44,717 nt of DNA from a phage. The notes beneath the pieces are model-generated. The model had not been told where the DNA came from. It made no database searches and saw only the letters and a program-made list of their open reading frames with translations. Made by a program: the position numbers and the translations under genes. The stretch lies in NCBI GenBank assembly GCA_036609835.1, contig GCA_036609835.1_4358.1, one strand, 5' to 3'. Positions 1-44,717 of the stretch are shown here, piece after piece. Numbering within the stretch: position 1 is the stretch's first letter; each line of letters begins with the position of its first letter.

Positions 1-127
1 TGAAGGGTAGAAAAGTCGCCAGAATGCTTAATATCATTGTTACGTGCAAGCAAACTCCTTTCGCCACTGCCTATGTTCTCGGCACCGTCCGCGTCAGATA
101 ATGTTTCAACGGTGTTACCGTTGGAAA
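1..127. repeat. Left copy of an exact 127-bp terminal duplication (identical to 44591..44717); most simply the overlap of a circular or circularly permuted assembly
   Basis: Positions 1-127 read identically to 44591-44717; flanking sequence differs (44581-44590 vs 128-137). Confidence 0.9.
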
Positions 128-557
128 AAGACACCAGTGAAGCCCCTAAACCGGCGGTACTTGACGCCAAATCATTACGCAAATTTGGGTCTGTCTGCGG
201 CTTCCAGTTAGCGTTACCGACTGGATTAAAACTCGCGGGAACAACAACCGGCAACGTACCCGCATATGAGTACCACGTCTTGCTTACGGGGTCATACACC
301 ACTTTGTCGCGGTCATTAACTGTTAACGTACCGCCGGTGGAAAAGTCCCACGATACGGGAGAAAAACCGGCATCACGCAACACAGCAGGAAGCGTCTTCT
401 GGGTCTGCCCGGTAACAGGGTTGGTCGCGTAATCAATATCGGCGCCACCAGCAACCCCGCCGGATTTACCGGTGATAACCTCGGCTTCAAAAATTTGGTG
501 TTTCTTGGCGGTTTGTAAATCCGCCAGGCTTAAAACGTCACCGCATCCGCTTGACAT
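1..557 (-). CDS. Tailspike / receptor-binding protein, N-terminal part; gene crosses the window ends and continues in 43162..44717
   Basis: ATG at 557-555 with AAGAGGA 6 nt upstream; minus-strand frame has no stop from 557 to 3 and is in phase with ORF 43162..44643; N-terminus MSSGCGDVLSLADLQTAKKHQIFEAEVITGK is absent from the ORF track. Confidence 0.75.
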   Translation of the reverse strand, partial: MSSGCGDVLSLADLQTAKKHQIFEAEVITGKSGGVAGGADIDYATNPVTGQTQKTLPAVLRDAGFSPVSWDFSTGGTLTVNDRDKVVYDPVSKTWYSYAGTLPVVVPASFNPVGNANWKPQTDPNLRNDLASSTAGLGASLVSFSNGNTVETLSDADGAENIGSGERSLLARNNDIKHSGDFSTL

Positions 558-8519: not shown

Positions 8520-8626
8520 TCTTTAATCCTTTGGTTAAGAGGTTACGGGTTAAGGTTAATGCGCCAGACGGGAACCACCCGCTTTTCGTGTGCGACACTA
8601 GGCGCAAAATTATTCTATCACATTAC

Positions 8627-8655
8627 TTGCACACCCCAATATAATAGTGTACTAT
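8627..8655 (+). promoter_or_regulatory. Sigma70-type promoter TTGCAC-N17-TACTAT with AATAG-N4-CTATT palindrome, driving the plus-strand insert operon
   Basis: ttgcacaccccaatataatagtgtactat; 19-mer gcacaccccaatataatag is repeated exactly at 18182; same motif in reverse at 29839-29867. Confidence 0.6.
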
Positions 8656-8696
8656 TCACTTACACCAACGATGTTATCCCAAACAGGAGCTACACC

Positions 8697-10541: not shown

Positions 10542-11095
10542 TGGCTAAGGTAATTATTCTTAATGGCCCTGCGGGTTGCGGGAAAGACACGCTTGCTATG
10601 GCGCTGGTAGAAATGGGCTTTGCGAAAGGAACTACCAGTTTCAAGAATCCAATGTTCAATATTGCTTTGGCAGCGTTAGGCCAGGATGCTTACCACGAAT
10701 TTCTCGACGGCTACGACGACCGGGCGCGGAAAGAAAAACCCGAGGGTTTTCTTAATGGGTTGTCCCGCCGCCGGTTAATGATTGCCATTTCTGAGCAATT
10801 CATTAAACCGGTATTCGGCGATGATTATTTCGGTAAGTATCTTGCTGAAAACTTGCCTGACGGCGACGAAGTTTTTGTAGTGTCCGATGGTGGATTCGCC
10901 AGTGAAGTTGCCCCTATCGTCGCCGCGGGGCATGACGTGCGAATCGTCCGCCTCCATCGTGACGGCTATACGTTCATCTGCGATAGCCGTGGCTATCTGT
11001 ACGATGTTAGTGGTGTAAAAGATTACGACACCTACATCATACCGGGTGACGTTAAATCGAACGTTATAGACATTGCTTTAAAATTAGGTTTGTAA
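10541..11095 (+). CDS. Deoxynucleoside monophosphate kinase-like P-loop kinase (T4 gp1-like), 184 aa
   Basis: Walker A GPAGCGKDT; RRRLMIAISEQF and VFVVSDGGFASEV...VRIVRLHRDG resemble T4 dNMP kinase blocks recalled from memory. Confidence 0.55.
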   Translation: MAKVIILNGPAGCGKDTLAMALVEMGFAKGTTSFKNPMFNIALAALGQDAYHEFLDGYDDRARKEKPEGFLNGLSRRRLMIAISEQFIKPVFGDDYFGKYLAENLPDGDEVFVVSDGGFASEVAPIVAAGHDVRIVRLHRDGYTFICDSRGYLYDVSGVKDYDTYIIPGDVKSNVIDIALKLGL

Positions 11096-11126
11096 GAAAA
11101 AGGCCCCGAAAGGGGCCTTAGTTTTA
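11096..11126. terminator. Bidirectional rho-independent terminator
   Basis: aaaaaggccccgaaaggggccttagtttt: GC stem with A-run upstream and T-run downstream; between convergent kinase and major tail genes. Confidence 0.7.
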
Positions 11127-12296
11127 TGCGTAGGTGATACGTTGAATTACGATAGACGACTGGTACTGATTGCCGGTAGCCTGGCCTTCAATGGACTGAG
11201 TGATTGACTCAGGCCCACCAATCTCAGGTGTAACCGCCGTAAGCTCTGCACGTTTCAAACTGAAAGACATAGCCCCGTTTACCCCTGCCAGAATAGAGTT
11301 AATCTCTACCTGCTGCTCGTTGATAAACTTCTGAATCATCGCCATGTCGTACAGCTTGCCAGAGATAGAGAATGTGTTAGCTGCGCGGCTACGTTCCACA
11401 AAAGCCACATTAGTGTTGCCTAGTTCGAACTGCGCGGACGCGCTGTTATCGTTGGTGATAGTCAGGCTATCGCAACGCAACGGGGTAGCGCCGTCGAACA
11501 CGGAAACGTCAACCGAAGAGAACGGCTCATCACCAAAAGTAACAGATGAGAAGTTGGAACCGGTCGGCGGCGTAGTGAGAATCTCCTGACTGCGACCGAT
11601 GAATGGGAAGCTGCCAGTTACCATCGCGTTAACAGCCTGCTCGATGGTAAAACCAGAAACTTCCACGCCTTTGGTTAACGTGTACGCGTCAGTACCGCCG
11701 CACTGGCCTTTGTACCAGGTAAGGATAGAGAACGTCTTACACGTGTTACCGGTTTCCAGCGTGTCGCCAGTTTTAGCCTTACTAGTTTTTGTCTCGGTGG
11801 TCAGGGTGTGTTGGATGCCCGCACCAGTAACAACCGTAGCCGTTACTGCAGTAACAATAAATGGTTTTGCGTTATCGCCTGTTAAATCGGTAAACGCAAT
11901 CAGGTCGCCTACCCCAACTCCGTCAGTGATAAAGCTGCCGGTGGCACGTGTGAACGTCTTGCCAGCCGGTGCGACGGTAATCGATAGCCCTGACAGAGAT
12001 ACGCCAGCCTGCCACGTAGAGCCTAAAGCCCCGGCTAGCCAGTCATCCTGGCTTTTAGAGCTAAGCTCAATAGCGTATTCTCCGCTAACCTGCTTGTTAC
12101 CGGTGCGGATGGATGTGGTTTCTCGGCTGCCGTCAAGTTCGTTGGAGGTCAGCGTGTCGCGGGTAATGGCAGGAACGCCGCCCGTGTTGCGCAACGGCGA
12201 CCATACCGGGTTAGCCGGTGTTACGCCCGGGGTCACTTCCGCCACATAGAATTGCGCGGTATTCGCGCCCTTAAAAGGAGTTGTAGCCATATTCAC
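11124..12296 (-). CDS. Major tail protein (putative), 390 aa
   Basis: Ser/Thr/Gly-rich ORF between tail completion genes and chaperones, followed by a strong terminator. Confidence 0.55.
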   Translation of the reverse strand: MNMATTPFKGANTAQFYVAEVTPGVTPANPVWSPLRNTGGVPAITRDTLTSNELDGSRETTSIRTGNKQVSGEYAIELSSKSQDDWLAGALGSTWQAGVSLSGLSITVAPAGKTFTRATGSFITDGVGVGDLIAFTDLTGDNAKPFIVTAVTATVVTGAGIQHTLTTETKTSKAKTGDTLETGNTCKTFSILTWYKGQCGGTDAYTLTKGVEVSGFTIEQAVNAMVTGSFPFIGRSQEILTTPPTGSNFSSVTFGDEPFSSVDVSVFDGATPLRCDSLTITNDNSASAQFELGNTNVAFVERSRAANTFSISGKLYDMAMIQKFINEQQVEINSILAGVNGAMSFSLKRAELTAVTPEIGGPESITQSIEGQATGNQYQSSIVIQRITYA

Positions 12297-18179: not shown

Positions 18180-18208
18180 TTGCACACCCCAATATAATAG
18201 GGTACTAT
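18180..18208 (+). promoter_or_regulatory. Sigma70-type promoter TTGCAC-N17-TACTAT, near-identical to the one at 8627
   Basis: ttgcacaccccaatataatagggtactat followed by AAACAGGAGG RBS and ATG 18236. Confidence 0.6.
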
Positions 18209-18235
18209 TCAGTTAACTTAAACAGGAGGTGAAAA

Positions 18236-18439
18236 ATGTATGCAATTTGCGAAGTAGTTCAAGAGTTCGATGAAGAGTTCGACGGTGACTTGTGCCGGGT
18301 TAAAAAGGTTCTGCAGGTTTTCCCTGACGCAATGTCTGCTTACAAGGCATTAGATATATTTGAACCTGGAAGATACGGGGATTATGACACTGTTCTGAGG
18401 GTTGTCCATGAGCAGGATTTAAACACAAGATTCCGTTGA
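18236..18439 (+). CDS. Hypothetical protein, 67 aa (moron)
   Basis: Opposite strand to flanking head genes; own promoter, strong RBS and downstream terminator; acidic. Confidence 0.6.
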   Translation: MYAICEVVQEFDEEFDGDLCRVKKVLQVFPDAMSAYKALDIFEPGRYGDYDTVLRVVHEQDLNTRFR

Positions 18440-18440
18440 A

Positions 18441-18470
18441 AACTAAGGCCCCTTAATGGGGCCTTTTATC
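18441..18470. terminator. Bidirectional rho-independent terminator
   Basis: aaactaaggccccttaatggggccttttatc. Confidence 0.65.
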
Positions 18471-19973: not shown

Positions 19974-20054
19974 ATACCCTCCTGTTTCGATATGACAATC
20001 ATATCAGTCGGTAACGTATTGGCATAATCATACGCATTTAAGGTTAAAAAGAGC

Positions 20055-20085
20055 TTGATTAAATTCTACATTCAAATGTAGAATT
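20055..20085 (+). promoter_or_regulatory. Promoter TTGATT-N18-TAGAAT overlapped by a perfect 11-bp-arm palindrome (candidate operator)
   Basis: aattctacatt-ca-aatgtagaatt at 20062-20085; AAACAGGAG RBS and ATG 20116 follow. Confidence 0.55.
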
Positions 20086-20115
20086 TAAACGTACACTTAA
20101 ACAGGAGAAATACAC

Positions 20116-20769
20116 ATGAAACTGCAAACATTAGAGTTCCCTTATGGAGAAATCACTTTTGACCGTGAAAACTTTATTAACGTAAACGAGCTGGTTGACC
20201 AGATGAACCGTTGGCGTTTAGACAACGGCATGGGGGCCAGAGAGCTTCGCCAGGTCATGGCAACGGATGGCTTCAAGATTTTCAAGGAGGAATGCGAAAA
20301 ACAACTCGGAATCGAGAATGCCATAAGGGCGACGAAAGGCCGAAACGGTCGCACCTTTGCATGTCTCCATCTGGCAGTATATATTGCTGAGCAATACAGC
20401 GCCTATTTCCATTTCCTCGTTATCGACCGCTTTATCACACAACGGCAGGTAGAACTACGAAACATTGGCGCGGTGAGCTTTGTCGAGCTTAACGCTGCCG
20501 TTAGTCGAATGATCGAGCGCACGGAGGGAAGAATTGGCCACAGTGGACACTTCATACAGGTGGCTAAAGCGGTAAAGGAATCCGTAGATATCCGCGACGT
20601 AACGGGTTTCGATACATGGGACTCTCAGGATGCGAAGACCAATCAGTTGCGAAGTGACATCCAGAAAGCTCTGGTGACGCTTCTTGACATGGAGGCCGTT
20701 AATACATGGGGTGAACTGAAAGAGGCGATACCTCGGGTTGTGCGTAAATGTGCGGCTAATATACGTTAA
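20116..20769 (+). CDS. KilA-N-like domain protein (putative), 217 aa (moron)
   Basis: KGRNGRTFACLHLAVYIAEQYSAYFHF resembles the conserved KilA-N core; own promoter/operator and terminator; opposite strand to portal and head genes. Confidence 0.45.
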   Translation: MKLQTLEFPYGEITFDRENFINVNELVDQMNRWRLDNGMGARELRQVMATDGFKIFKEECEKQLGIENAIRATKGRNGRTFACLHLAVYIAEQYSAYFHFLVIDRFITQRQVELRNIGAVSFVELNAAVSRMIERTEGRIGHSGHFIQVAKAVKESVDIRDVTGFDTWDSQDAKTNQLRSDIQKALVTLLDMEAVNTWGELKEAIPRVVRKCAANIR

Positions 20770-20796
20770 AACTAAGGCCCCTAGCGGGGCCTTTCT
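20770..20796. terminator. Bidirectional rho-independent terminator
   Basis: aaactaaggcccctagcggggcctttctattt. Confidence 0.65.
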
Positions 20797-20798
20797 AT

Positions 20799-22268
20799 TT
20801 ACTCCTGTTGTTGCGCGGACTGCGGAATTTCTCCTGCTACCTGAGCAACCGCACCCAACGGCAGCGGTGCGTCCCCAATAGCGTTCTGAATGTCCTCATC
20901 GGTCCAGTCGGTTACGCCAGCCTTACGCAACGCGGCGTAGTAAGCAGTAGCTGGTAGCAGGCCTGCGTTAATGTCCGCCATCCACTGAGCGCGGTCCTGA
21001 GCTGTCATCGGTTGCAGGAAGAACTCCATGTTCAGCTTGAATTCAATCTCAGTATCTTCACTAAGCCCAAGCATACCCGCAACCCAGCGCAACGCATCGG
21101 TATACGCCATGCTTACATTACGTGCTATTGTTGCCATGACTGACGTGTCGGCGCCGCGTTGCAGGCGGGCCGATTCCGCGGTGATTTGCTGCGTCGGGGT
21201 GATAAGCTGCGCGCCAATCTGGATGGCCTGATTCTCTTTATCCAGCATATTCTGTTTGGCGAGGTTAGTTTCCGCCGCCTGAACCAGAAACGCATTTCCG
21301 CCGGAGCCGATGTTGTGGCCTGAACGCGACCCCATGCGTATGCCGTGTGGGTTGGCTTCTTTCCACTGCTCCATGCTCATGTTCTCGCCGGGGGCAATGA
21401 ACAGTGTCGGTTGACCTACTATAAAGCTGGCCTCTTCCACATCGGCCGAATTTCTGAAGTGTCCTATATTTAGCTCAGCTAACGGCAGTAAAGGCGCATC
21501 GTCTATAGTGGCGTCGTTGTTGCTTGCGCCAATGAACGTGAACGGGATTTTACCGCGCAACTGTTCGCCGAGTTCCGGGAAGATTTCGATTACTTCATCC
21601 TGTGCGCCACCTTCGGCATCGAAGCGGTAGATGCGCTGGCGGTAGCGACCGTCAATCAGGTCAAGGACGCGGTATTGCTCGCCGAATTTTGTTTCAAACT
21701 CAGCGCCTGGTTCCGAGTATTCCCATGCCTCACGCAATACAACCATCGTCACGCGGTTCACTGAGCCGATGCGGGTGAGTCTCCAGTTGATAATGTTCTC
21801 CGCGGTATAGAATGCGATTACCGGGTTTAATAATCCCGCGTTCTGCTCTGCCGCCGTTGCTGCGGCTGTTTCCGGGGCGTCCACCAGCAACCCGCCACGG
21901 CCTATCGAGTTAATCTCCATCAGCGTATCCTGCGCGTGCTGCCACAGCCCGACACCTGAACCGTCAGCGTTGTGCAACAGGTACTCAAGTTCAGGCGGGA
22001 TAATCTGCTCAGGGTCTTTGCGCATCACTGACCCCGTCATCCCCGCCAGCGTGCGTTTGGTGAAATTGTAGCAGATAGCGCCGTTCTCGTATTCTTCCTG
22101 TCGCTGTGCTGCGTAGGTCTGGTCAGGCTCGTTCTTCCCGACGTTGCGCAGATAGCGGATAAGGTCGCCTTCAAGAGCGTGGCGTACCTTCTGCCATTTA
22201 TCGAAGTGATGCAGCCATTCCCGGTGTTTTGTCTTAACACCCTGATTCTGACCGTTCATAGTTAACAT
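20799..22268 (-). CDS. Portal protein, 489 aa
   Basis: Size and position immediately downstream of large terminase. Confidence 0.7.
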   Translation of the reverse strand: MLTMNGQNQGVKTKHREWLHHFDKWQKVRHALEGDLIRYLRNVGKNEPDQTYAAQRQEEYENGAICYNFTKRTLAGMTGSVMRKDPEQIIPPELEYLLHNADGSGVGLWQHAQDTLMEINSIGRGGLLVDAPETAAATAAEQNAGLLNPVIAFYTAENIINWRLTRIGSVNRVTMVVLREAWEYSEPGAEFETKFGEQYRVLDLIDGRYRQRIYRFDAEGGAQDEVIEIFPELGEQLRGKIPFTFIGASNNDATIDDAPLLPLAELNIGHFRNSADVEEASFIVGQPTLFIAPGENMSMEQWKEANPHGIRMGSRSGHNIGSGGNAFLVQAAETNLAKQNMLDKENQAIQIGAQLITPTQQITAESARLQRGADTSVMATIARNVSMAYTDALRWVAGMLGLSEDTEIEFKLNMEFFLQPMTAQDRAQWMADINAGLLPATAYYAALRKAGVTDWTDEDIQNAIGDAPLPLGAVAQVAGEIPQSAQQQE

Positions 22269-22280
22269 TTAATAATCCTC

Positions 22281-23531
22281 TTAAAGTGCGAAAGTCACCG
22301 GGATGTTGATTACTGGTTTGACCACCGGCATCTCATAAACTACAGGATAGCCGAGAGCATCAGCCATATGGTCAATGACGCCGTCTTTAGCCGGCTCTCC
22401 GTTATCGTCGTATGCCTGCTGTTCCAGCGTCTTGGCTATCTCAGGACATAAGTGGTCATTAACCCACAGCTTACCTTTTTCCAGCGCGGTGTTCACGGCT
22501 AAAACGCGGTCTTTAACCGGGGGGTTGGCTGATTTAGCGCGAACATCGAAACCCGCCTGCTGGAGTAATGCAATATCAGAGATTGACGCCGAGTTTGTCT
22601 TACGGTTCTTGCCGCTAGCGTCGGGGTAAACGACGATGCGGTGGCCTTGTGACTTCCACTTCTCGGTAATTACGCGCACGGTGTCCGGCGTATCGAACAG
22701 GCCCTTCAGTTCTGCAACCGCGTGCCATCCATCTTTACGCTGCACATACACGGCGCTGGCGTTCTTCGTAACGTTGAAGTCCTGCCCGATGTACAGCGTG
22801 TCGCCCGGTTGAATTGTCTCTTTGCTGCGGTGCTTGCGTCGGTCGTATGCGTAATACACGCTTCCGGATGTCAGGTTGACAAACTCACCGTTCAGATACG
22901 CGTTAATCAGTTGCGCCGGGTAAGTCTCAGTCAGCGAGCTAATGTAATCCGGCGGCAGGAATCTGGCGTTCTCGTGAGTGGACGCCTGCACCATTGAGTA
23001 ACTCGGCGTCGGGTTCTCCTTGAACTTGGCGTAAACGAACTTGAACCCTTCCGGAGTCGTGGTGACGGAGATGTGGTTAATTACCCCCGGGATAACCAGA
23101 CGCATGCGGGCTACGATTTTGTTCCACGCCAGCTCGGCTTTCTCACGGCTCAATACGTCCAGCTCATCCACGACCGCAGCCGCGATTTTGAAGCCGACTA
23201 TCGAGCCGGGGTTATCCATCGAGCGGCAGATAACAGTTCCGAGCACCGTCTTACCGCGAGTGACCACGACTTCTTTGTCGCCAGATTTAACCAGCACATC
23301 GAGGCCGAGGAGGTTAGCCGCTTCCTCGAATGTCGGGTAGAAGATGTCGCGGATAGCCGGGTAGGTGGGGCCGAAGTAGCCCAGGCGGGTACCCGGGTTC
23401 CGGAGCATGAACGTAAGCAGGTCGAGACAGCCGACAAATGTCTTGCCGCTACCGAAGCCTCCGACATAGGCCTTGTATTTGTTATCGCAATTCAGGAACA
23501 GTGCCTGTGGTGCGGATAGCTGAATACTCAT
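22281..23531 (-). CDS. Terminase large subunit, 416 aa
   Basis: Walker A VGGFGSGKTFVG near N-terminus; acidic nuclease-like C-terminal half; follows small terminase. Confidence 0.8.
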   Translation of the reverse strand: MSIQLSAPQALFLNCDNKYKAYVGGFGSGKTFVGCLDLLTFMLRNPGTRLGYFGPTYPAIRDIFYPTFEEAANLLGLDVLVKSGDKEVVVTRGKTVLGTVICRSMDNPGSIVGFKIAAAVVDELDVLSREKAELAWNKIVARMRLVIPGVINHISVTTTPEGFKFVYAKFKENPTPSYSMVQASTHENARFLPPDYISSLTETYPAQLINAYLNGEFVNLTSGSVYYAYDRRKHRSKETIQPGDTLYIGQDFNVTKNASAVYVQRKDGWHAVAELKGLFDTPDTVRVITEKWKSQGHRIVVYPDASGKNRKTNSASISDIALLQQAGFDVRAKSANPPVKDRVLAVNTALEKGKLWVNDHLCPEIAKTLEQQAYDDNGEPAKDGVIDHMADALGYPVVYEMPVVKPVINIPVTFAL

Positions 23532-28717: not shown

Positions 28718-28866
28718 ATTCTTCGCTCACCCCGTTATAGACGCCGTTGTAGTCCCCGTCGCAGATGAACGTGTAGAGCATATCTTCGTACTCGTCCTGC
28801 AACTCACCTAAAGTTACTTCGCTATAATCTTTCATCTTCTGTCTCTCCTCTAGTTTGTGTAAATGA

Positions 28867-28895
28867 ATAGTAGCCTATTCTATCTTAGTGTGCAA
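28867..28895 (-). promoter_or_regulatory. Sigma70-type promoter TTGCAC-N17-TACTAT (minus strand)
   Basis: Reverse complement reads ttgcacactaagatagaataggctactat. Confidence 0.55.
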
Positions 28896-28964
28896 GTAAA
28901 TTTTATTGGTGTTTGTATTGTTGCATCTCCTGCAATAGTCGCTTCGATTGTTGCGTTTGGTGAA

Positions 28965-29804: not shown

Positions 29805-29838
29805 TTCTAAATTCCTTATGTCTCGTTTCGATAAGTGA

Positions 29839-29867
29839 ATAGTATCCTATTATGTTGGGGTGTGCAA
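29839..29867 (-). promoter_or_regulatory. Leftward early promoter TTGCAC-N17-TACTAT with AATAG-N4-CTATT palindrome
   Basis: Reverse complement ttgcacaccccaacataataggatactat; near-identical to plus-strand promoters at 8627 and 18180. Confidence 0.6.
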
Positions 29868-33423: not shown

Positions 33424-33487
33424 GTCAATTACTCCTTAGTCAGTTGATATGTGAATAGTACCATATTAATTATTTTAGAAAAGCCCA

Positions 33488-33516
33488 TTGACATGTGAAT
33501 AGTTCGCTATTATAGT
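33488..33516 (+). promoter_or_regulatory. Rightward promoter TTGACA-N17-TATAGT with AATAG-N4-CTATT palindrome in the spacer
   Basis: ttgacatgtgaatagttcgctattatagt; a second related element (ttgatatgtgaatagtaccatat) lies at 33443-33465. Confidence 0.65.
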
Positions 33517-33544
33517 TAGCCCATACCAAACGAGAGGGGCGGAT

Positions 33545-36069: not shown

Positions 36070-36317
36070 TTCGTAAAATGTTCAGAGTAATTGGCGGTTT
36101 TGTGGCGTGTATTGTTTTCTGGGTTCTTATGCTACCCCTAACGCTACCAACATTTATCTTAATGTGTATTACGGTATGTATAGCGCAAACTCGCGACATA
36201 GAAGCCATCCTGAGTGATAAATCGTGGAAGACACAGGCGCTTCGATTCATAAACAGCATGAAATGGCCTAACAAATATATCGAGATAGTTGAGAAAATAA
36301 CTGGCTGGAAGGGTTGA
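36066..36317 (+). CDS. Small membrane protein, 83 aa
   Basis: ATG 36066 (ATGA overlap); two hydrophobic helices. Confidence 0.45.
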   Translation: MIRKMFRVIGGFVACIVFWVLMLPLTLPTFILMCITVCIAQTRDIEAILSDKSWKTQALRFINSMKWPNKYIEIVEKITGWKG

Positions 36318-36342
36318 CACCTGAATAGTTAGCTATTATAGT
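36314..36342 (+). promoter_or_regulatory. Promoter TTGACA-N17-TATAGT with AATAG-N4-CTATT palindrome, upstream of the SSB gene
   Basis: ttgacacctgaatagttagctattatagt. Confidence 0.6.
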
Positions 36343-36410
36343 TCTAATCACTGGCCGGGCAGCTTCCCGGAGTAAACTTTGAAATATAAACTGAAAAGCG
36401 AGAAATCACG

Positions 36411-37040: not shown

Positions 37041-37055
37041 TATCTGAATCAATTT

Positions 37056-37084
37056 AACTAAGGCCCTTCATTGGGCCTTTTTAC
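37056..37084 (+). terminator. Rho-independent terminator after SSB gene
   Basis: aaggcccttcattgggcctttttac. Confidence 0.65.
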
Positions 37085-39634: not shown

Positions 39635-39922
39635 ATGAGTACGCCTGAGGGGCGCATACAGAAATACGCAAAAGAGCGATTCGAGGCCATCGGGGGCCTC
39701 GTCCGTAAACTGTCTTATGAGGGGCGCTCCGGCGCTCCCGACCTGCTGGTAATTCTCCCGGGCGGCATCGTCTGGTTCGTCGAGGTGAAGAAAGACGAAA
39801 GCACGAAGCCTGACCCACACCAGTTACGAGAGCATGAGCGGATGCGTAAACGTGGTGCGAATGTTTTTGTCGTCGGGTCGTTCAAACAGGTTGACGACCT
39901 AATAGCGAACTATTATAGTTAG
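39635..39922 (+). CDS. VRR-NUC domain nuclease, 95 aa
   Basis: GAPDLLVILPGGIVWFVEVKKDE carries the D...E.K core. Confidence 0.6.
   Translation: MSTPEGRIQKYAKERFEAIGGLVRKLSYEGRSGAPDLLVILPGGIVWFVEVKKDESTKPDPHQLREHERMRKRGANVFVVGSFKQVDDLIANYYS
39887..39915 (+). promoter_or_regulatory. Promoter TTGACG-N17-TATAGT with AACTAT/ATAGTT palindrome, inside the 3' end of the VRR-NUC gene
   Basis: ttgacgacctaatagcgaactattatagt; downstream tagttagccctacacc matches the 33488 promoter. Confidence 0.5.
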
Positions 39923-41100: not shown

Positions 41101-42517
41101 GTTTCAAAGGCGCGAATACCAGAAGCTCATGACTTCGTTTATGCTGCAACACCCGCGCTGTAATATATGGTGCGGAATGGGGGGAGGTAAAACCTCCTCC
41201 ACTATGTGGGTGCTCAACCGCCTGTTCCGCAACGGGCAGCTTACGGAAGAGGACCGCGTGTTAATCCTTGCCCCGTTACGTGTTGCGTCCGGTACGTGGC
41301 CCGCTGAACAAGAGAAATGGCAATTCCCTTGTCTGCGTGTCGTAGATGCAACTGGTTCGGAGAAGCGCCGCATCGCAGCGCTGGAGTCAGATGCTAACGT
41401 GGTGTGCACTAACTACGAAGTTATCGAGTGGCTAATTGACTACTACGGCAAAGACGACTGGCCTTTTACGGTTATCGTTGCCGATGAAAGCACGAAGCTT
41501 AAATCGTTCCGCAGCCGTTCGGGTGGTAGCAAGCGGGCAAAGGCGCTCAGCAAGGTTGCGTTCGGAAAGGTTAAGCGTTTCATCAACCTGACAGGCACAC
41601 CGTCACCAAACGGCCTCAAAGACTTGTGGGGTCAGAACTGGTTTATCGACGCTGGCGAGCGCCTCGGCTCTTCGTACACAGCATTCACCGACCGCTGGTT
41701 TAACTCGGTACAGAAAGGTAAATCGGCTATGGCCCGCGAGTATCATGCACGACCGGGTGCGGATAATGAGATTCATCAGAAGATGAAAGACATCAGCCTG
41801 ACCATAGACCCTGCCGAGTGGTTTGGTTGTGAAGCGCCTGTTATCGTACCGGTGGAAATAGACCTGCCGAAGAAAGCGCGTCAGGCGTACATAGATATGG
41901 AGGAGAAGTTATTCGCAGAACTGGAGAGCGGGGAAGTTGAAGCGGCTAACGCTGCGGCGAAGACCTCAAAGTGCTTGCAGATTGCATCTGGTGCTGTATA
42001 TGTATCCGGGCCAGACGGCGAAGCAACCAAAGAATGGGAGAAAGTGCACGACACGAAACTGGATGCGCTGGCGTCCATTGTCGAGGAGTTACAGGGTGCG
42101 CCGTTACTGGTAGCCTATCAGTTTAAACACGAACTGGAGCGTATCCTTAAGCGATTCCCACAGGCACAGGCGTTCGCCAAAGGCGCTAGGGGGAACAAGC
42201 AGATGGAAGCGTGGAACCGTGGGGAAATACCTATGCTCCTGATACACCCAGCCTCCGCGGGCCACGGGCTGTCGCTACAACACGGCGGGCACCACATGGC
42301 CTTTATGAGTCAGGGGTGGAACCTGGAACATTATCTGCAGGTTATCGAACGCATAGGTCCTGTAAGGCAGATGCAATCTGGGTACAAACGGTCAGTATTC
42401 ATTTATCAAATAATAGCCCGAGATACTCTTGATGAAGTTGTCGCCACGCGTACAGATGAGAAAAGGTCTGTACAGGACGAACTACTTAATTATATGAAAC
42501 GTAGGAGTAAGAAATGA
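41093..42517 (+). CDS. SNF2-family helicase/ATPase, 474 aa
   Basis: Walker A CGMGGGKTSS, DEXH-like VIVADESTKLK, NLTGTPSPNGL; ATGAGTAA overlap with methyltransferase stop. Confidence 0.7.
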   Translation: MSKFQRREYQKLMTSFMLQHPRCNIWCGMGGGKTSSTMWVLNRLFRNGQLTEEDRVLILAPLRVASGTWPAEQEKWQFPCLRVVDATGSEKRRIAALESDANVVCTNYEVIEWLIDYYGKDDWPFTVIVADESTKLKSFRSRSGGSKRAKALSKVAFGKVKRFINLTGTPSPNGLKDLWGQNWFIDAGERLGSSYTAFTDRWFNSVQKGKSAMAREYHARPGADNEIHQKMKDISLTIDPAEWFGCEAPVIVPVEIDLPKKARQAYIDMEEKLFAELESGEVEAANAAAKTSKCLQIASGAVYVSGPDGEATKEWEKVHDTKLDALASIVEELQGAPLLVAYQFKHELERILKRFPQAQAFAKGARGNKQMEAWNRGEIPMLLIHPASAGHGLSLQHGGHHMAFMSQGWNLEHYLQVIERIGPVRQMQSGYKRSVFIYQIIARDTLDEVVATRTDEKRSVQDELLNYMKRRSKK

Positions 42518-42999
42518 GCAAGGTATCATACGACCCTGAAACCGGTATTTTCACATGGGTCGAAACAAAACGTAGGGGTTTTGTTGGAAAGAAAGCCGGA
42601 TGTTTTTGTCCGCGGGAGGGGTACATTCGTATCCGAATAAACGGAAAACTAGAACTAGCACATCGGTTAGCATGGGACATATGCAATCCAGATAACCCAC
42701 TTACCCCACAGGAACAGATAGACCATATCAATCACATTCGAACCGATAACCGAATATGCAACCTGCGGAAAGTTACCAACACTGAAAATAGCCGCAACGC
42801 ATCGATAGGGGTAAACAATACTAGCGGCGCTCTTGGTGTATGGCGGGAAAAGAGAAGAAACAAATGGGTAGCAGAGATAAAAGTCGACAGAAGAAAAATA
42901 CATCTAGGACAGTTTGATGATTTTGGAGAAGCTGTTGCCGCGCGTAAAGCCGCGGAAGCTGCTTACGGATTTCATAAAAACCACGGAGAAACCGCGTGA
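42514..42999 (+). CDS. HNH homing endonuclease with AP2-type DNA-binding domain, 161 aa
   Basis: IDHINHIRTDNRICNLRKVTNTEN (HNH) and GVWREKRRNKWVAEIKVDRRKIHLGQFDDFGEAVAARKAA (AP2-like); locally AT-rich. Confidence 0.7.
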   Translation: MSKVSYDPETGIFTWVETKRRGFVGKKAGCFCPREGYIRIRINGKLELAHRLAWDICNPDNPLTPQEQIDHINHIRTDNRICNLRKVTNTENSRNASIGVNNTSGALGVWREKRRNKWVAEIKVDRRKIHLGQFDDFGEAVAARKAAEAAYGFHKNHGETA

Positions 43000-43135: not shown

Positions 43136-43164
43136 AAAAGGCCCCGTTTGGGGCCTTAGTTTTA
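43136..43164. terminator. Bidirectional rho-independent terminator between convergent HNH and tailspike genes
   Basis: aaaaggccccgtttggggccttagtttt. Confidence 0.7.
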
Positions 43165-44717
43165 AGCCAACGACATTCGGGAGTTAGCGAAAGCTAAAGC
43201 CTGAGCCTGCGTCGTAAACTCAGCGATGAAGAAGTCACTAAATCTGATAACAGCACCTGAACCTCCCCCAGTAGAGACGTACAGACCTACAGTACCGTTA
43301 GCGGAAGCTTTACCCACCCCAAATGTGCTAATCCACTCACCAGACTTAGTATAAACGCTACCCATAGTAATACCTGACGTTATACTCACATCTGCTGTTC
43401 CTGATTGGAGGCGAGAGTTGACGCCCCACACGTACCATCTACCGGATGTAAGTGTCGTTCTTGACGCTACCATTTCATATAAACCGGACCCAGGGAATGA
43501 AAATTCGGTACATGTAGCGGCGTGAAGTCCGTCAGATACAGTCGAACCGTTAACGGTACCGCTACCAGAAAAATTATGGCTACCTGAGTCAAATGTGATA
43601 GCTTTTAACTTATTCCCCGTCGGCGTATTAAACACTCGTCCCCTTGTTAAATTTCCTCGTAGAGACAAGTTTGTAGTGGCTACCGTTGCGGATTGCGACG
43701 CGACAGACTCTACAATAACGTCCTTTCCAGAACTGCCGTTTAAATACACATCGTGGGCTACAATGGTGCTTTGTGCATCCACTACAATATCCTGATTACC
43801 ATCAGCGTTGTCAAAACGGCAACCATAAGTTACTAAGTTGGAGTTGGATAGCTCGATGTTGTTGAGATAAGAATACTCAGCAAAGAATATCGCGGTGTCT
43901 ACCAACTTGAGAACTCGCGGTTTTTGCGCCACGCCATCTACCTGAACAGCCGATGATGTTGCAATAGCTTCCATCCATACATTGGATACCCCGCATGGAG
44001 ATGTAGGGCAGTCACCCGATTTGCTTTTTAAGTATATCCCGCCGCCTCCGGAAGCCTCAATAATGGAGTCTTTAAGCCACCATCCGCCTATCCCACCGTT
44101 ATCGACAGTACCGTTTAGGTAGACGGCATAGGTGGAGATGCCGTCGAAGTGGATATTGTAGAGGGTATCGGCCCCGCAATGCATCTCCGAGCCACTAATC
44201 GCGTAATACCCCCAATCACACGTAGATACCCCAATACTTCTCCATGTATTACCGATGTTCCCGGAAGGCTTCTGAATGGCCTTGTTGATGTTGTGGATGT
44301 ATAAATCACTAAAATTATGACGTCCGGAATATTGGTCTGACGGGTCAAAACTAATACCTACGGCCCCAGTTGTACCTGTACCATCTACGGCAAAACCACC
44401 GCTGTGTCGAAACTGCCAGTGCGGGGTGGATAAATTAACCTGTACAGTATTTGCATAGTTTGCCGATGGTTTTAATATTGCAGCACCACCTACACCTTTT
44501 ATCTGCTTACTACCCAGAGTGATTGCTTCTGTATACTCACCCGGAGAAACAATTAAGTCGTTTTTAGTTAACGACGCATCTACCGCGGCTTGAAGGGTAG
44601 AAAAGTCGCCAGAATGCTTAATATCATTGTTACGTGCAAGCAAACTCCTTTCGCCACTGCCTATGTTCTCGGCACCGTCCGCGTCAGATAATGTTTCAAC
44701 GGTGTTACCGTTGGAAA
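43162..44717 (-). CDS. Tailspike / receptor-binding protein, C-terminal part (5' end continues across the window junction to ATG 557)
   Basis: ORF 43162..44643 is open upstream to the window end and in phase with 1..557; Gly/Ser/Thr/Asn-rich repetitive sequence consistent with a beta-helix domain. Confidence 0.7.
   Translation of the reverse strand, partial: SNGNTVETLSDADGAENIGSGERSLLARNNDIKHSGDFSTLQAAVDASLTKNDLIVSPGEYTEAITLGSKQIKGVGGAAILKPSANYANTVQVNLSTPHWQFRHSGGFAVDGTGTTGAVGISFDPSDQYSGRHNFSDLYIHNINKAIQKPSGNIGNTWRSIGVSTCDWGYYAISGSEMHCGADTLYNIHFDGISTYAVYLNGTVDNGGIGGWWLKDSIIEASGGGGIYLKSKSGDCPTSPCGVSNVWMEAIATSSAVQVDGVAQKPRVLKLVDTAIFFAEYSYLNNIELSNSNLVTYGCRFDNADGNQDIVVDAQSTIVAHDVYLNGSSGKDVIVESVASQSATVATTNLSLRGNLTRGRVFNTPTGNKLKAITFDSGSHNFSGSGTVNGSTVSDGLHAATCTEFSFPGSGLYEMVASRTTLTSGRWYVWGVNSRLQSGTADVSITSGITMGSVYTKSGEWISTFGVGKASANGTVGLYVSTGGGSGAVIRFSDFFIAEFTTQAQALAFANSRMSLA
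44591..44717. repeat. Right copy of the 127-bp terminal duplication
   Basis: Identical to 1..127. Confidence 0.9.

What the first reader, a model, noticed from the sequence alone, without database searches (positions are those of the whole stretch)
44591..44717. Exact 127-bp terminal duplication indicates a circular or circularly permuted genome
Positions 1-127 and 44591-44717 are identical. An overlap of exactly 127 nt is what k-mer assemblers leave when a circular contig is written linearly with k=127, so this is more likely an assembly artefact than a biological terminal repeat. The unique genome is 44590 bp.
Basis: partly seen in the sequence, partly recalled or inferred. Interest (0 to 1): 0.35.

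Follow-up and report, generated by a model that had tools for sequence, protein, structure and literature searches.

The report
Assembler overlap on a phage genome
The identical 127 bases at both ends of this sequence are left over from assembly software closing a circle, not a biological repeat. The real object is an ordinary 44,590-bp E. coli phage genome of the genus Kagunavirus.

Summary
Window 1-127 and 44591-44717 are identical, the match is exactly 127 nt, and there is no third copy.

- Removing one copy and joining the ends restores one uninterrupted 661-aa tailspike gene on the minus strand (window 43162-44590 joined to 1-557).
- That joined sequence aligns without gaps to the middle of 13 GenBank relatives and 2 IMG/VR contigs, each with a single copy of the 127-mer.
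- The phage is a Kagunavirus (Guernseyvirinae), 96% identical to vB_EcoS-22664BS2.
- Two relatives' public records carry the same kind of leftover at other positions: XY1 has 127 nt, 186 nt away in the same gene, and SXAU_B4 has 87 nt about 11 kb away. Length and place therefore follow the assembly, not the biology.
- Published protocols describe "127 bp artificial overlaps" on SPAdes contigs.
- The large terminase is 99% identical to that of phage G AB-2017, which published trees place beside headful packagers. The sister genus Jerseyvirus has experimental headful evidence.

The virion DNA is therefore most likely linear, circularly permuted and terminally redundant. The true unit length is 44,590 bp. 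This is an ordinary artefact of low interest. Reads would be needed for formal proof.

The parts
1..127 (.). First copy of the 127-nt terminal overlap. It lies inside the tailspike gene (gene nt 431-557, codons 144-186).
44591..44717 (.). Second, redundant copy of the overlap. It should be trimmed, leaving a unit genome of 1-44590.
1..557 (-). 5' part of the tailspike gene (start codon at 557-555). It encodes the conserved N-terminal anchor domain and the start of the receptor-binding module.
43162..44590 (-). 3' part of the same tailspike gene (stop codon at 43162-43164). It continues into position 1 once the sequence is circularised. The two parts together are 1986 nt, or 661 aa.
22281..23531 (-). 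Large terminase subunit (Terminase_6N/6C). It is 99% identical to TerL of phage G AB-2017 and 100% identical to that of phiEc4. This is the enzyme that determines what the real virion ends are.
   Evidence: PMC5582158
23528..24112 (-). Candidate small terminase subunit (phrog_3064 'terminase'). The listed ORF starts at a GTG, and the true start codon was not determined.
20799..22268 (-). Portal protein (phrog_145, DUF4055).

Best explanation
The 127-nt terminal duplication is an artefact of de Bruijn-graph assembly. The reads of this phage formed a closed cycle in the graph. The assembler wrote that cycle out as a linear contig whose first and last k-mer (k = 127, the largest k SPAdes uses) are the same vertex. 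Trimming one copy gives the true 44,590-bp unit genome of a Kagunavirus (Guernseyvirinae) E. coli siphovirus, and the arbitrary cut happens to fall inside the tailspike gene. The graph closes into a circle most probably because this phage packages DNA by the headful mechanism from concatemers. Individual virion DNAs would then be linear, circularly permuted and terminally redundant, so reads bridge every position of the map. Shown here: the exact overlap, the restored gene, colinearity with relatives, the variable placement of equivalent overlaps in relatives, and the terminase identity. Inferred: which assembler and k were used, and headful packaging for this particular phage. My confidence is about 0.98 that the repeat is an artefact and about 0.85 that packaging is headful.
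For: Exact prefix=suffix of precisely 127 nt, with no third copy.

Circularisation restores a 661-aa tailspike ORF. It has the same length (1986 nt) as the annotated tailspike CDS of MZ234010. It matches one PHROG tail-fibre family, phrog_27367, in a single stretch over residues 3-665 at 1215 bits.

A 3-kb single-copy junction aligns ungapped at 99.2% to MZ234010. It aligns as one piece, mid-record, to 13 phage records. Two independent IMG/VR contigs hold the junction ungapped with one copy of the 127-mer.

phiEc4 (44,540 bp, opened at terL) maps once around the whole 44,590-bp circle and runs straight through the window's junction.

Relatives' records keep equivalent overlaps elsewhere. XY1 has an exact 127 nt at tailspike nt 245-371, not at the homologous nt 431-557. 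SXAU_B4 has an exact 87 nt at window-equivalent ~11.1 kb.

Packaging: TerL is 99% identical to G AB-2017 TerL. That paper places it, with K1G and K1H, beside headful packagers and apart from the short-DTR clade (PMC5582158). Jerseyvirus K47 is headful by PhageTerm, circular-type restriction map and diffuse PFGE band (PMC10783031). Jerseyvirus SeF1 has redundant, random, permuted ends (PMC9409062). Kagunavirus fBC-Eco01 shows no obvious termini (PMC9825357).
Against: No reads are available, so uniform coverage over the 127 nt and the absence of read-start pile-ups were not checked. The assembler and its k value are inferred from the overlap length alone.

A circular assembly does not by itself prove headful packaging. 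Genomes with cos ends or collapsed terminal repeats also close into circles.

The experimental headful evidence comes from Jerseyvirus, whose TerL is only about 54% identical to this one. For the window's own TerL allele, the evidence is a published phylogeny and a negative PhageTerm result in a Kagunavirus whose TerL allele I did not check.

The cut lies close to the tailspike module boundary, and XY1's cut is only 186 nt away. This may mean the break position is not entirely arbitrary.
Confidence: 0.88

Rival explanations
1. The 127 nt is an assembler artefact, but the circle does not reflect headful permutation. The virion DNA has fixed ends somewhere else in the genome (cos ends, or a direct terminal repeat collapsed to one copy). 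The graph closed because of concatemer or ligated-end reads, or because of the collapsed repeat.
For: Circular assembly is expected for cos and DTR phages too, and PMC9409062 saw overlaps and end-spanning genes on cos-type Chivirus contigs. The fBC-Eco01 paper speaks of a cos site, but only as generic text. In the UPEC study one phage of family Sarkviridae also had undetermined termini.
Against: The window's TerL allele clusters with headful packagers, not with cos or short-DTR types, in PMC5582158. Jerseyvirus relatives have experimental headful signatures and PhageTerm 'redundant, random, permuted' ends. PhageTerm found no fixed termini in a Kagunavirus at 651x depth. GenBank relatives are opened at different, conventional points such as terL, with no shared physical end.
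Confidence: 0.08
2. The 127 nt is a genuine short direct terminal repeat of the packaged linear genome, like those of T7-like phages. The physical ends would lie inside the tailspike gene.
For: The repeat is exact and sits at both ends of the sequence as given. Its length is within the range of known short DTRs: 165-289 bp in the K1E/K1F-like podoviruses of PMC5582158 and 463 bp in a Pseudomonas podovirus.
Against: It lies in codons 144-186 of an essential structural gene, so every virion DNA would carry the tailspike gene split at its ends. None of the relatives' records checked ends at the homologous position, and 15 sequences run through it. A relative has an overlap of the very same length shifted by 186 nt, and another has one of 87 nt about 11 kb away, which a conserved biological end would not do. 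The length equals the documented SPAdes artefact length. TerL is not in the short-DTR clade.
Confidence: 0.01
3. The sequence is a truly circular replicon, such as a plasmid-like prophage or a captured replicative form, and not a packaged linear phage genome.
For: The assembly closes into a circle.
Against: The genome is a typical virulent Kagunavirus. It has terminase, portal, capsid and tail genes, and no plasmid partition or integration functions were seen among the ORFs scanned. Relatives are isolated as virions with linear dsDNA.
Confidence: 0.02

Closest known systems
SPAdes-type k-mer overlap on circular contigs ('127 bp artificial overlaps', Philipson et al. 2018, PMC5923482; phage U136B, PMC8104045)
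   Same: An exact prefix=suffix of 127 nt on a phage contig. Removing one copy gives the complete genome, and a gene spans the contig ends.
   Different: Nothing material. The assembler used for this window is not known and is inferred from the overlap length.
Escherichia phage vB_EcoS-22664BS2 (MZ234010 / NC_073324), genus Kagunavirus, subfamily Guernseyvirinae
   Same: 96% nt identity over the first 20 kb and 99.2% over the 3-kb junction region. It has the same gene order and the same 1986-nt tailspike.
   Different: The record is opened elsewhere, at window-equivalent ~27.5 kb, and has no terminal overlap at the tailspike. The replication/early half is more mosaic.
Escherichia phage vB_EcoS_XY1 (MN927225 / NC_073325) and vB_EcoS-K1_SXAU_B4 (OQ696342)
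   Same: Kagunavirus records that still carry an exact assembler overlap at their ends: 127 nt and 87 nt.
   Different: The overlaps lie at other genome positions: tailspike nt 245-371, and window-equivalent ~11.1 kb. Both phages have different, K1-type tailspikes.
Headful (pac) packaging as shown for Jerseyvirus K47 (PMC10783031) and classically for P22 and P1
   Same: A Terminase_6N/6C large terminase. A genome that assembles as a circle. Relatives without fixed termini.
   Different: Not demonstrated for this phage. Its TerL is only ~54% identical to the Jerseyvirus enzyme. No pac site was identified.
Short direct terminal repeats of T7/SP6-like podoviruses (e.g. K1E, K1F; 165-289 bp)
   Same: A direct repeat of roughly similar length at both ends of a linear sequence.
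   Different: Those repeats sit at conserved genome ends and go with a different terminase clade. Here the repeat is inside a structural gene, is not conserved in position, and has an assembler-defined length.

Membership tests
Assembler k-mer overlap of a circular de Bruijn path | Prefix and suffix of the contig are exactly identical, with no mismatches | tested here: met
   127/127 identical, and the longest prefix=suffix is exactly 127
Assembler k-mer overlap of a circular de Bruijn path | Overlap length equals a k value used by a common assembler | tested here: met
   127 nt is the overlap reported for SPAdes contigs (PMC5923482; PMC8104045). The assembler actually used here is unknown.
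Assembler k-mer overlap of a circular de Bruijn path | Removing one copy and joining the ends gives a sequence continuous with independent genomes and restores any interrupted gene | tested here: met
   Tailspike ORF restored. Ungapped alignment to 13 GenBank records and 2 IMG/VR contigs.
Assembler k-mer overlap of a circular de Bruijn path | Position of the overlap is not conserved among related genomes | tested here: met
   XY1 has a 127-nt overlap shifted by 186 nt. SXAU_B4 has an 87-nt overlap at ~11.1 kb. BEU33, BEU35 and PDP21P8 have none.
Assembler k-mer overlap of a circular de Bruijn path | Read coverage over the overlap equals the genome average, with no read-end pile-ups at its borders | not testable with these tools
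   No reads are available
Genuine short direct terminal repeat (DTR packaging) | Virion DNA molecules begin and end at the repeat boundaries (about 2x coverage, sharp termini) | not testable with these tools
   No reads or virion DNA
Genuine short direct terminal repeat (DTR packaging) | Genome ends lie at the homologous position in close relatives | tested here: not met
   15 related sequences run through the site. Record ends map to other places.
Genuine short direct terminal repeat (DTR packaging) | Large terminase groups with DTR-type terminases | tested here: not met
   TerL is 99% identical to G AB-2017 TerL, which PMC5582158 places beside headful packagers and apart from the short-DTR clade. 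No tree was built here.
Headful (pac) packaging with a circularly permuted, terminally redundant genome | Large terminase groups with headful-type terminases | tested here: met
   Terminase_6N/6C. 99% identity to a TerL placed beside headful packagers in a published tree. No tree was built here.
Headful (pac) packaging with a circularly permuted, terminally redundant genome | Sequence assembles into a closed circle with no fixed ends | tested here: met
   Exact overlap and a complete one-to-one wrap onto phiEc4. This is necessary but not sufficient.
Headful (pac) packaging with a circularly permuted, terminally redundant genome | Virion DNA ends are distributed around the map, the restriction map looks circular with or without a submolar pac fragment, and packaged length exceeds unit length | not testable with these tools
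   Shown only for relatives: Jerseyvirus K47 and SeF1. No termini were found in Kagunavirus fBC-Eco01.
Genus Kagunavirus (Guernseyvirinae) | Genome-wide nucleotide similarity to recognised members above the genus threshold, with shared gene order | tested here: met
   96% over 20 kb to MZ234010. 88-94% over 63-72% of the other half to several Kagunavirus records. No formal VIRIDIC value was computed.

The most novel reading that the evidence does not exclude
The 127 nt could be a true fixed-end direct terminal repeat lying inside the tailspike gene. The gene would then be split on every packaged molecule and become intact only after the ends recombine or the DNA forms concatemers in the cell. 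A milder non-standard reading is that the cut is not arbitrary. It would mark a branch point in the assembly graph at the tailspike anchor/receptor-binding module boundary, caused by co-occurring phage variants with swapped receptor-binding modules. Two independent Kagunavirus assemblies (this window and XY1) are both cut within 190 nt of that boundary.
Probability: 0.01. Interest if true: 0.45.

Novelty: not a real feature. Interest (0 to 1): 0.04.

Why it matters
The practical consequences are limited.
- The redundant 127 nt should be trimmed, giving a genome size of 44,590 bp and not 44,717 bp.
- The sequence should be treated as circular for annotation. Otherwise the tailspike, the host-range determinant, is split into two truncated ORFs. 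This happened in effect in the public XY1 record, where the N-terminal part of the tailspike is unannotated.
- Completeness callers that label such contigs 'DTR' should not be read as evidence of biological terminal repeats.

No new biology follows from the repeat itself.

Tried and rejected
- A sequence search of TerL against solved structures found nothing at E<=0.01, so no structure-based packaging class could be assigned. I relied on Pfam/PHROG and a published tree instead.
- tRNA and Rfam scans of the whole window were empty. The base-composition profile showed nothing unusual around the window ends.
- I looked for internal copies or inverted versions of the 127-mer and found none.
- The literature search 'Kagunavirus + headful' returned only one paper, in which the Kagunavirus-like phage had undetermined termini. 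The founding 'Jerseyvirinae' taxonomy paper was not in the searchable library.
- I first suspected that XY1's record start near window position 187 marked a shared physical end. I rejected this once the record proved to be declared circular and to carry its own 127-nt assembler overlap at a non-homologous position.
- I considered that the HNH endonuclease at 42514-42999 might indicate cos/HNH-type packaging. It is far from the terminase genes, so I did not count it as evidence.
- I did not try to locate a pac site. There is no reliable sequence signature for one.

Full report
**Observation**

The first 127 and last 127 bases of the 44,717-nt window are identical. A direct test shows that the longest exact prefix=suffix is exactly 127 nt. 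Repeat finding reports this as the only long direct repeat, with spacing 44,590. A sensitive blastn of the 127-mer against the window finds no further copy, only 10-22-nt chance matches. With near-equal base frequencies, the chance probability is about 4^-127, roughly 3e-77.

**What the sequence is**

- Megablast of the first 20 kb against GenBank phages gives 100% coverage at 96.0% identity to Escherichia phage vB_EcoS-22664BS2 (MZ234010). Dozens of further Kagunavirus (Guernseyvirinae) records of 43.9-45.6 kb also match.
- The other half matches the same genus at 88-94% identity over 63-72% of its length, in mosaic fashion.
- Gene content is that of a virulent siphovirus. It includes TerL (22281-23531, minus strand; Terminase_6N/6C), a candidate TerS, the portal, a Mu-F-like head protein, family A DNA polymerase, helicase-primase, a SNF2 helicase and a PD-(D/E)XK nuclease.
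- There are no tRNAs and no Rfam matches.

**What lies at the ends**

- When one copy of the 127-mer is removed and the ends are joined, a single open frame on the minus strand reads through the junction.
- From its ATG at window 557 to its stop at 43162 it is 1986 nt, or 661 aa. This is exactly the length of the annotated tailspike CDS of MZ234010.
- The protein matches one PHROG tail-fibre family (phrog_27367) in a single stretch over its whole length, at 1215 bits.
- The 127-mer corresponds to tailspike nt 431-557, codons 144-186.
- As written, the window therefore splits the phage's receptor-binding protein into two truncated pieces.

**Independent confirmation of the single-copy junction**

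- A synthetic 3-kb junction with one copy of the 127-mer aligns to MZ234010 over all 3,000 nt without a gap at 99.2% identity. The relative contains the 127-mer once.
- The same query aligns as one piece, at internal record positions, to 13 phage records at 93-99% identity.
- A pattern made of the two flanks separated by exactly 127 unspecified bases finds two IMG/VR contigs from one metagenome. Both carry the junction ungapped (97.5% and 99.1% identity) with a single copy.
- phiEc4 (44,540 bp) is opened exactly at the terL start codon. It maps once around the window's circle and passes through the window's junction at its positions 22809-22813. The 44,590-bp circle is therefore a complete genome.

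**Why the length is 127**

- The phage U136B announcement reports the same 127 bp on a SPAdes contig (PMC8104045).
  - The GenBank/RefSeq record of the related phage XY1 is declared circular. It has its own exact 127-nt prefix=suffix. It lies at tailspike nt 245-371, which is 186 nt away from the window's overlap and not at the homologous position.
  - A third Kagunavirus record, SXAU_B4, has an exact 87-nt overlap at window-equivalent ~11.1 kb.
  - BEU33, BEU35 and PDP21P8 have no overlap. Their ends map to window-equivalent ~23.6-23.95 kb and ~19.0 kb.
- Overlap length and position thus vary with the assembly, not with the phage lineage.

**Why the assembly closes into a circle**

A closed de Bruijn cycle only shows that reads bridge every point of the map. 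The most likely biological reason is headful packaging.

- The window's TerL is 99% identical to that of phage G AB-2017. Baig et al. placed that protein, together with K1G and K1H, in a clade next to headful packagers. The co-studied podoviruses fell in the short-DTR clade (PMC5582158).
- In the sister genus, Jerseyvirus K47 is headful by PhageTerm, by a circular-type EcoRV pattern and by a diffuse PFGE band (PMC10783031).
- Jerseyvirus SeF1 has redundant, random, permuted ends (PMC9409062).
- Kagunavirus fBC-Eco01 showed no obvious termini at 651x depth (PMC9825357).
- Caveat: the Jerseyvirus TerL is only ~54% identical to the window's. No reads exist for this phage, so headful packaging is inferred (about 0.85) and not shown.

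**Rival explanations**

- **True 127-bp DTR.** This would put fixed genome ends inside an essential structural gene, at a site that 15 related sequences cross and where no relative's record ends. It would also have exactly the assembler's k length. I give it about 1%.
- **Fixed ends elsewhere (cos, or a collapsed DTR) with the 127 nt still an artefact.** This cannot be excluded without reads, but it runs against the terminase and family evidence. I give it about 8%.
- **A truly circular replicon.** This does not fit the gene content. I give it about 2%.

**Comparison with what is known, and verdict**

This is the well-known assembler overlap on a member of a well-sampled phage genus. Nothing about the repeat is biological. 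The appropriate action is to trim 44591-44717, treat the map as circular, and annotate the tailspike across the junction. Interest is very low.

**Side observations**

- The distal ~500 residues of the tailspike are about 88% identical (83% over a 568-residue alignment) to the tail fibre of the T7-like podovirus LM33_P1.
- The N-terminal ~125 codons are shared with Kagunaviruses that carry other receptor-binding modules.
- That module boundary (gene nt 375-482) overlaps the 127-mer, and XY1's cut is also next to it. This may be coincidence. It may instead reflect a branch vertex in the assembly graphs caused by co-occurring tailspike variants. It cannot be tested without reads.
- The genus also holds two TerL alleles only ~54% identical to each other.

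Noticed in passing
L002 1-127 and L003 2941-3067 (MN927225.1 / NC_073325.1, phage XY1, record positions 1-127 and 45440-45566): The public record of phage XY1 is declared circular at 45,566 bp but still carries an exact 127-nt terminal overlap. Its true length is probably 45,439 bp. The N-terminal ~124 codons of its tailspike/endosialidase lie unannotated at record positions 1-371, and the annotated CDS starts internally at 45555.
   Followed up: yes
L010 (OQ696342.1, phage vB_EcoS-K1_SXAU_B4), both record ends: This Kagunavirus record has an exact 87-nt prefix=suffix overlap that maps to window-equivalent ~11.09-11.22 kb, next to a hairpin terminator. It is another untrimmed assembler overlap, of a different length.
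   Followed up: yes
window 43162-44590 plus 1-76 (tailspike gene nt 482-1979); L006 1501-2998: The receptor-binding part of the tailspike is 86.6% nt identical, and 83% aa identical over 568 residues, to the tail fibre of the T7-like podovirus LM33_P1 and several Kayfunavirus phages. The N-terminal anchor is Kagunavirus-specific. This indicates exchange of a receptor-binding module between a siphovirus and podoviruses. From my own knowledge, LM33_P1 is specific for O25b (its locus tags read O25BPHAGE1), so this phage probably targets O25b E. coli.
   Followed up: partly
window 1-186 (tailspike gene nt 371-557): The contig cut of this window (gene nt 431-557) and that of XY1 (gene nt 245-371) both fall within ~190 nt of the tailspike anchor/receptor-module boundary (gene nt 375-482). 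This may be chance, or it may be a graph branch point created by co-occurring tailspike variants. It cannot be tested without reads.
   Followed up: partly
window 22281-23531 (-): Kagunavirus holds two very different large-terminase alleles. 74 records are 95-100% identical to the window's TerL. Other Kagunaviruses whose flanking DNA is >90% identical (phiEc3, fEg-Eco06, KMB35) carry a Jerseyvirus-like TerL that is only ~54% identical. The nearest TerL outside the group is from Pseudoalteromonas phage HS5 (57.7%).
   Followed up: partly
window 29828-29857, 33444-33473, 33488-33517, 36314-36343, 39891-39920 (+); inverted copies at 8626-8671, 18180-18215 and 28853-28899: This is a family of ~30-nt promoter-like elements, TTGACA..TGAATAGT...CTATTATAGTT. 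Each has a -35-like and a -10-like hexamer, and the spacer contains a conserved inverted repeat (GAATAGT/ACTATTC). They sit in front of the gene blocks on both strands and may be shared promoters with a common operator.
   Followed up: no
window 11094-11129, 18439-18469, 20766-20799, 37054-37084, 43136-43167: These are near-identical GC-rich hairpins (AAAAGGCCCC-loop-GGGGCCTTnnTTTT) flanked by A and T runs on both sides, placed between convergent or adjacent gene blocks. They look like a reused bidirectional intrinsic terminator.
   Followed up: no
window 19985-20800, including ORF 20116-20769 (+): Almost all relatives lose nucleotide homology at ~19,975-19,985. The window has a 217-aa amidase (phrog_6095, full-length match) on the opposite strand between the portal gene and the Mu-F-like head gene. 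MZ234010 has a 390-nt hypothetical gene in that slot. This is a variable cargo slot inside the head-gene cluster.
   Followed up: partly
window 42514-42999 (+): An HNH endonuclease gene (phrog_99) lies directly upstream of the tailspike 3' end, downstream of the SNF2 helicase gene. It may be a homing endonuclease next to the recombination-prone tailspike locus.
   Followed up: no
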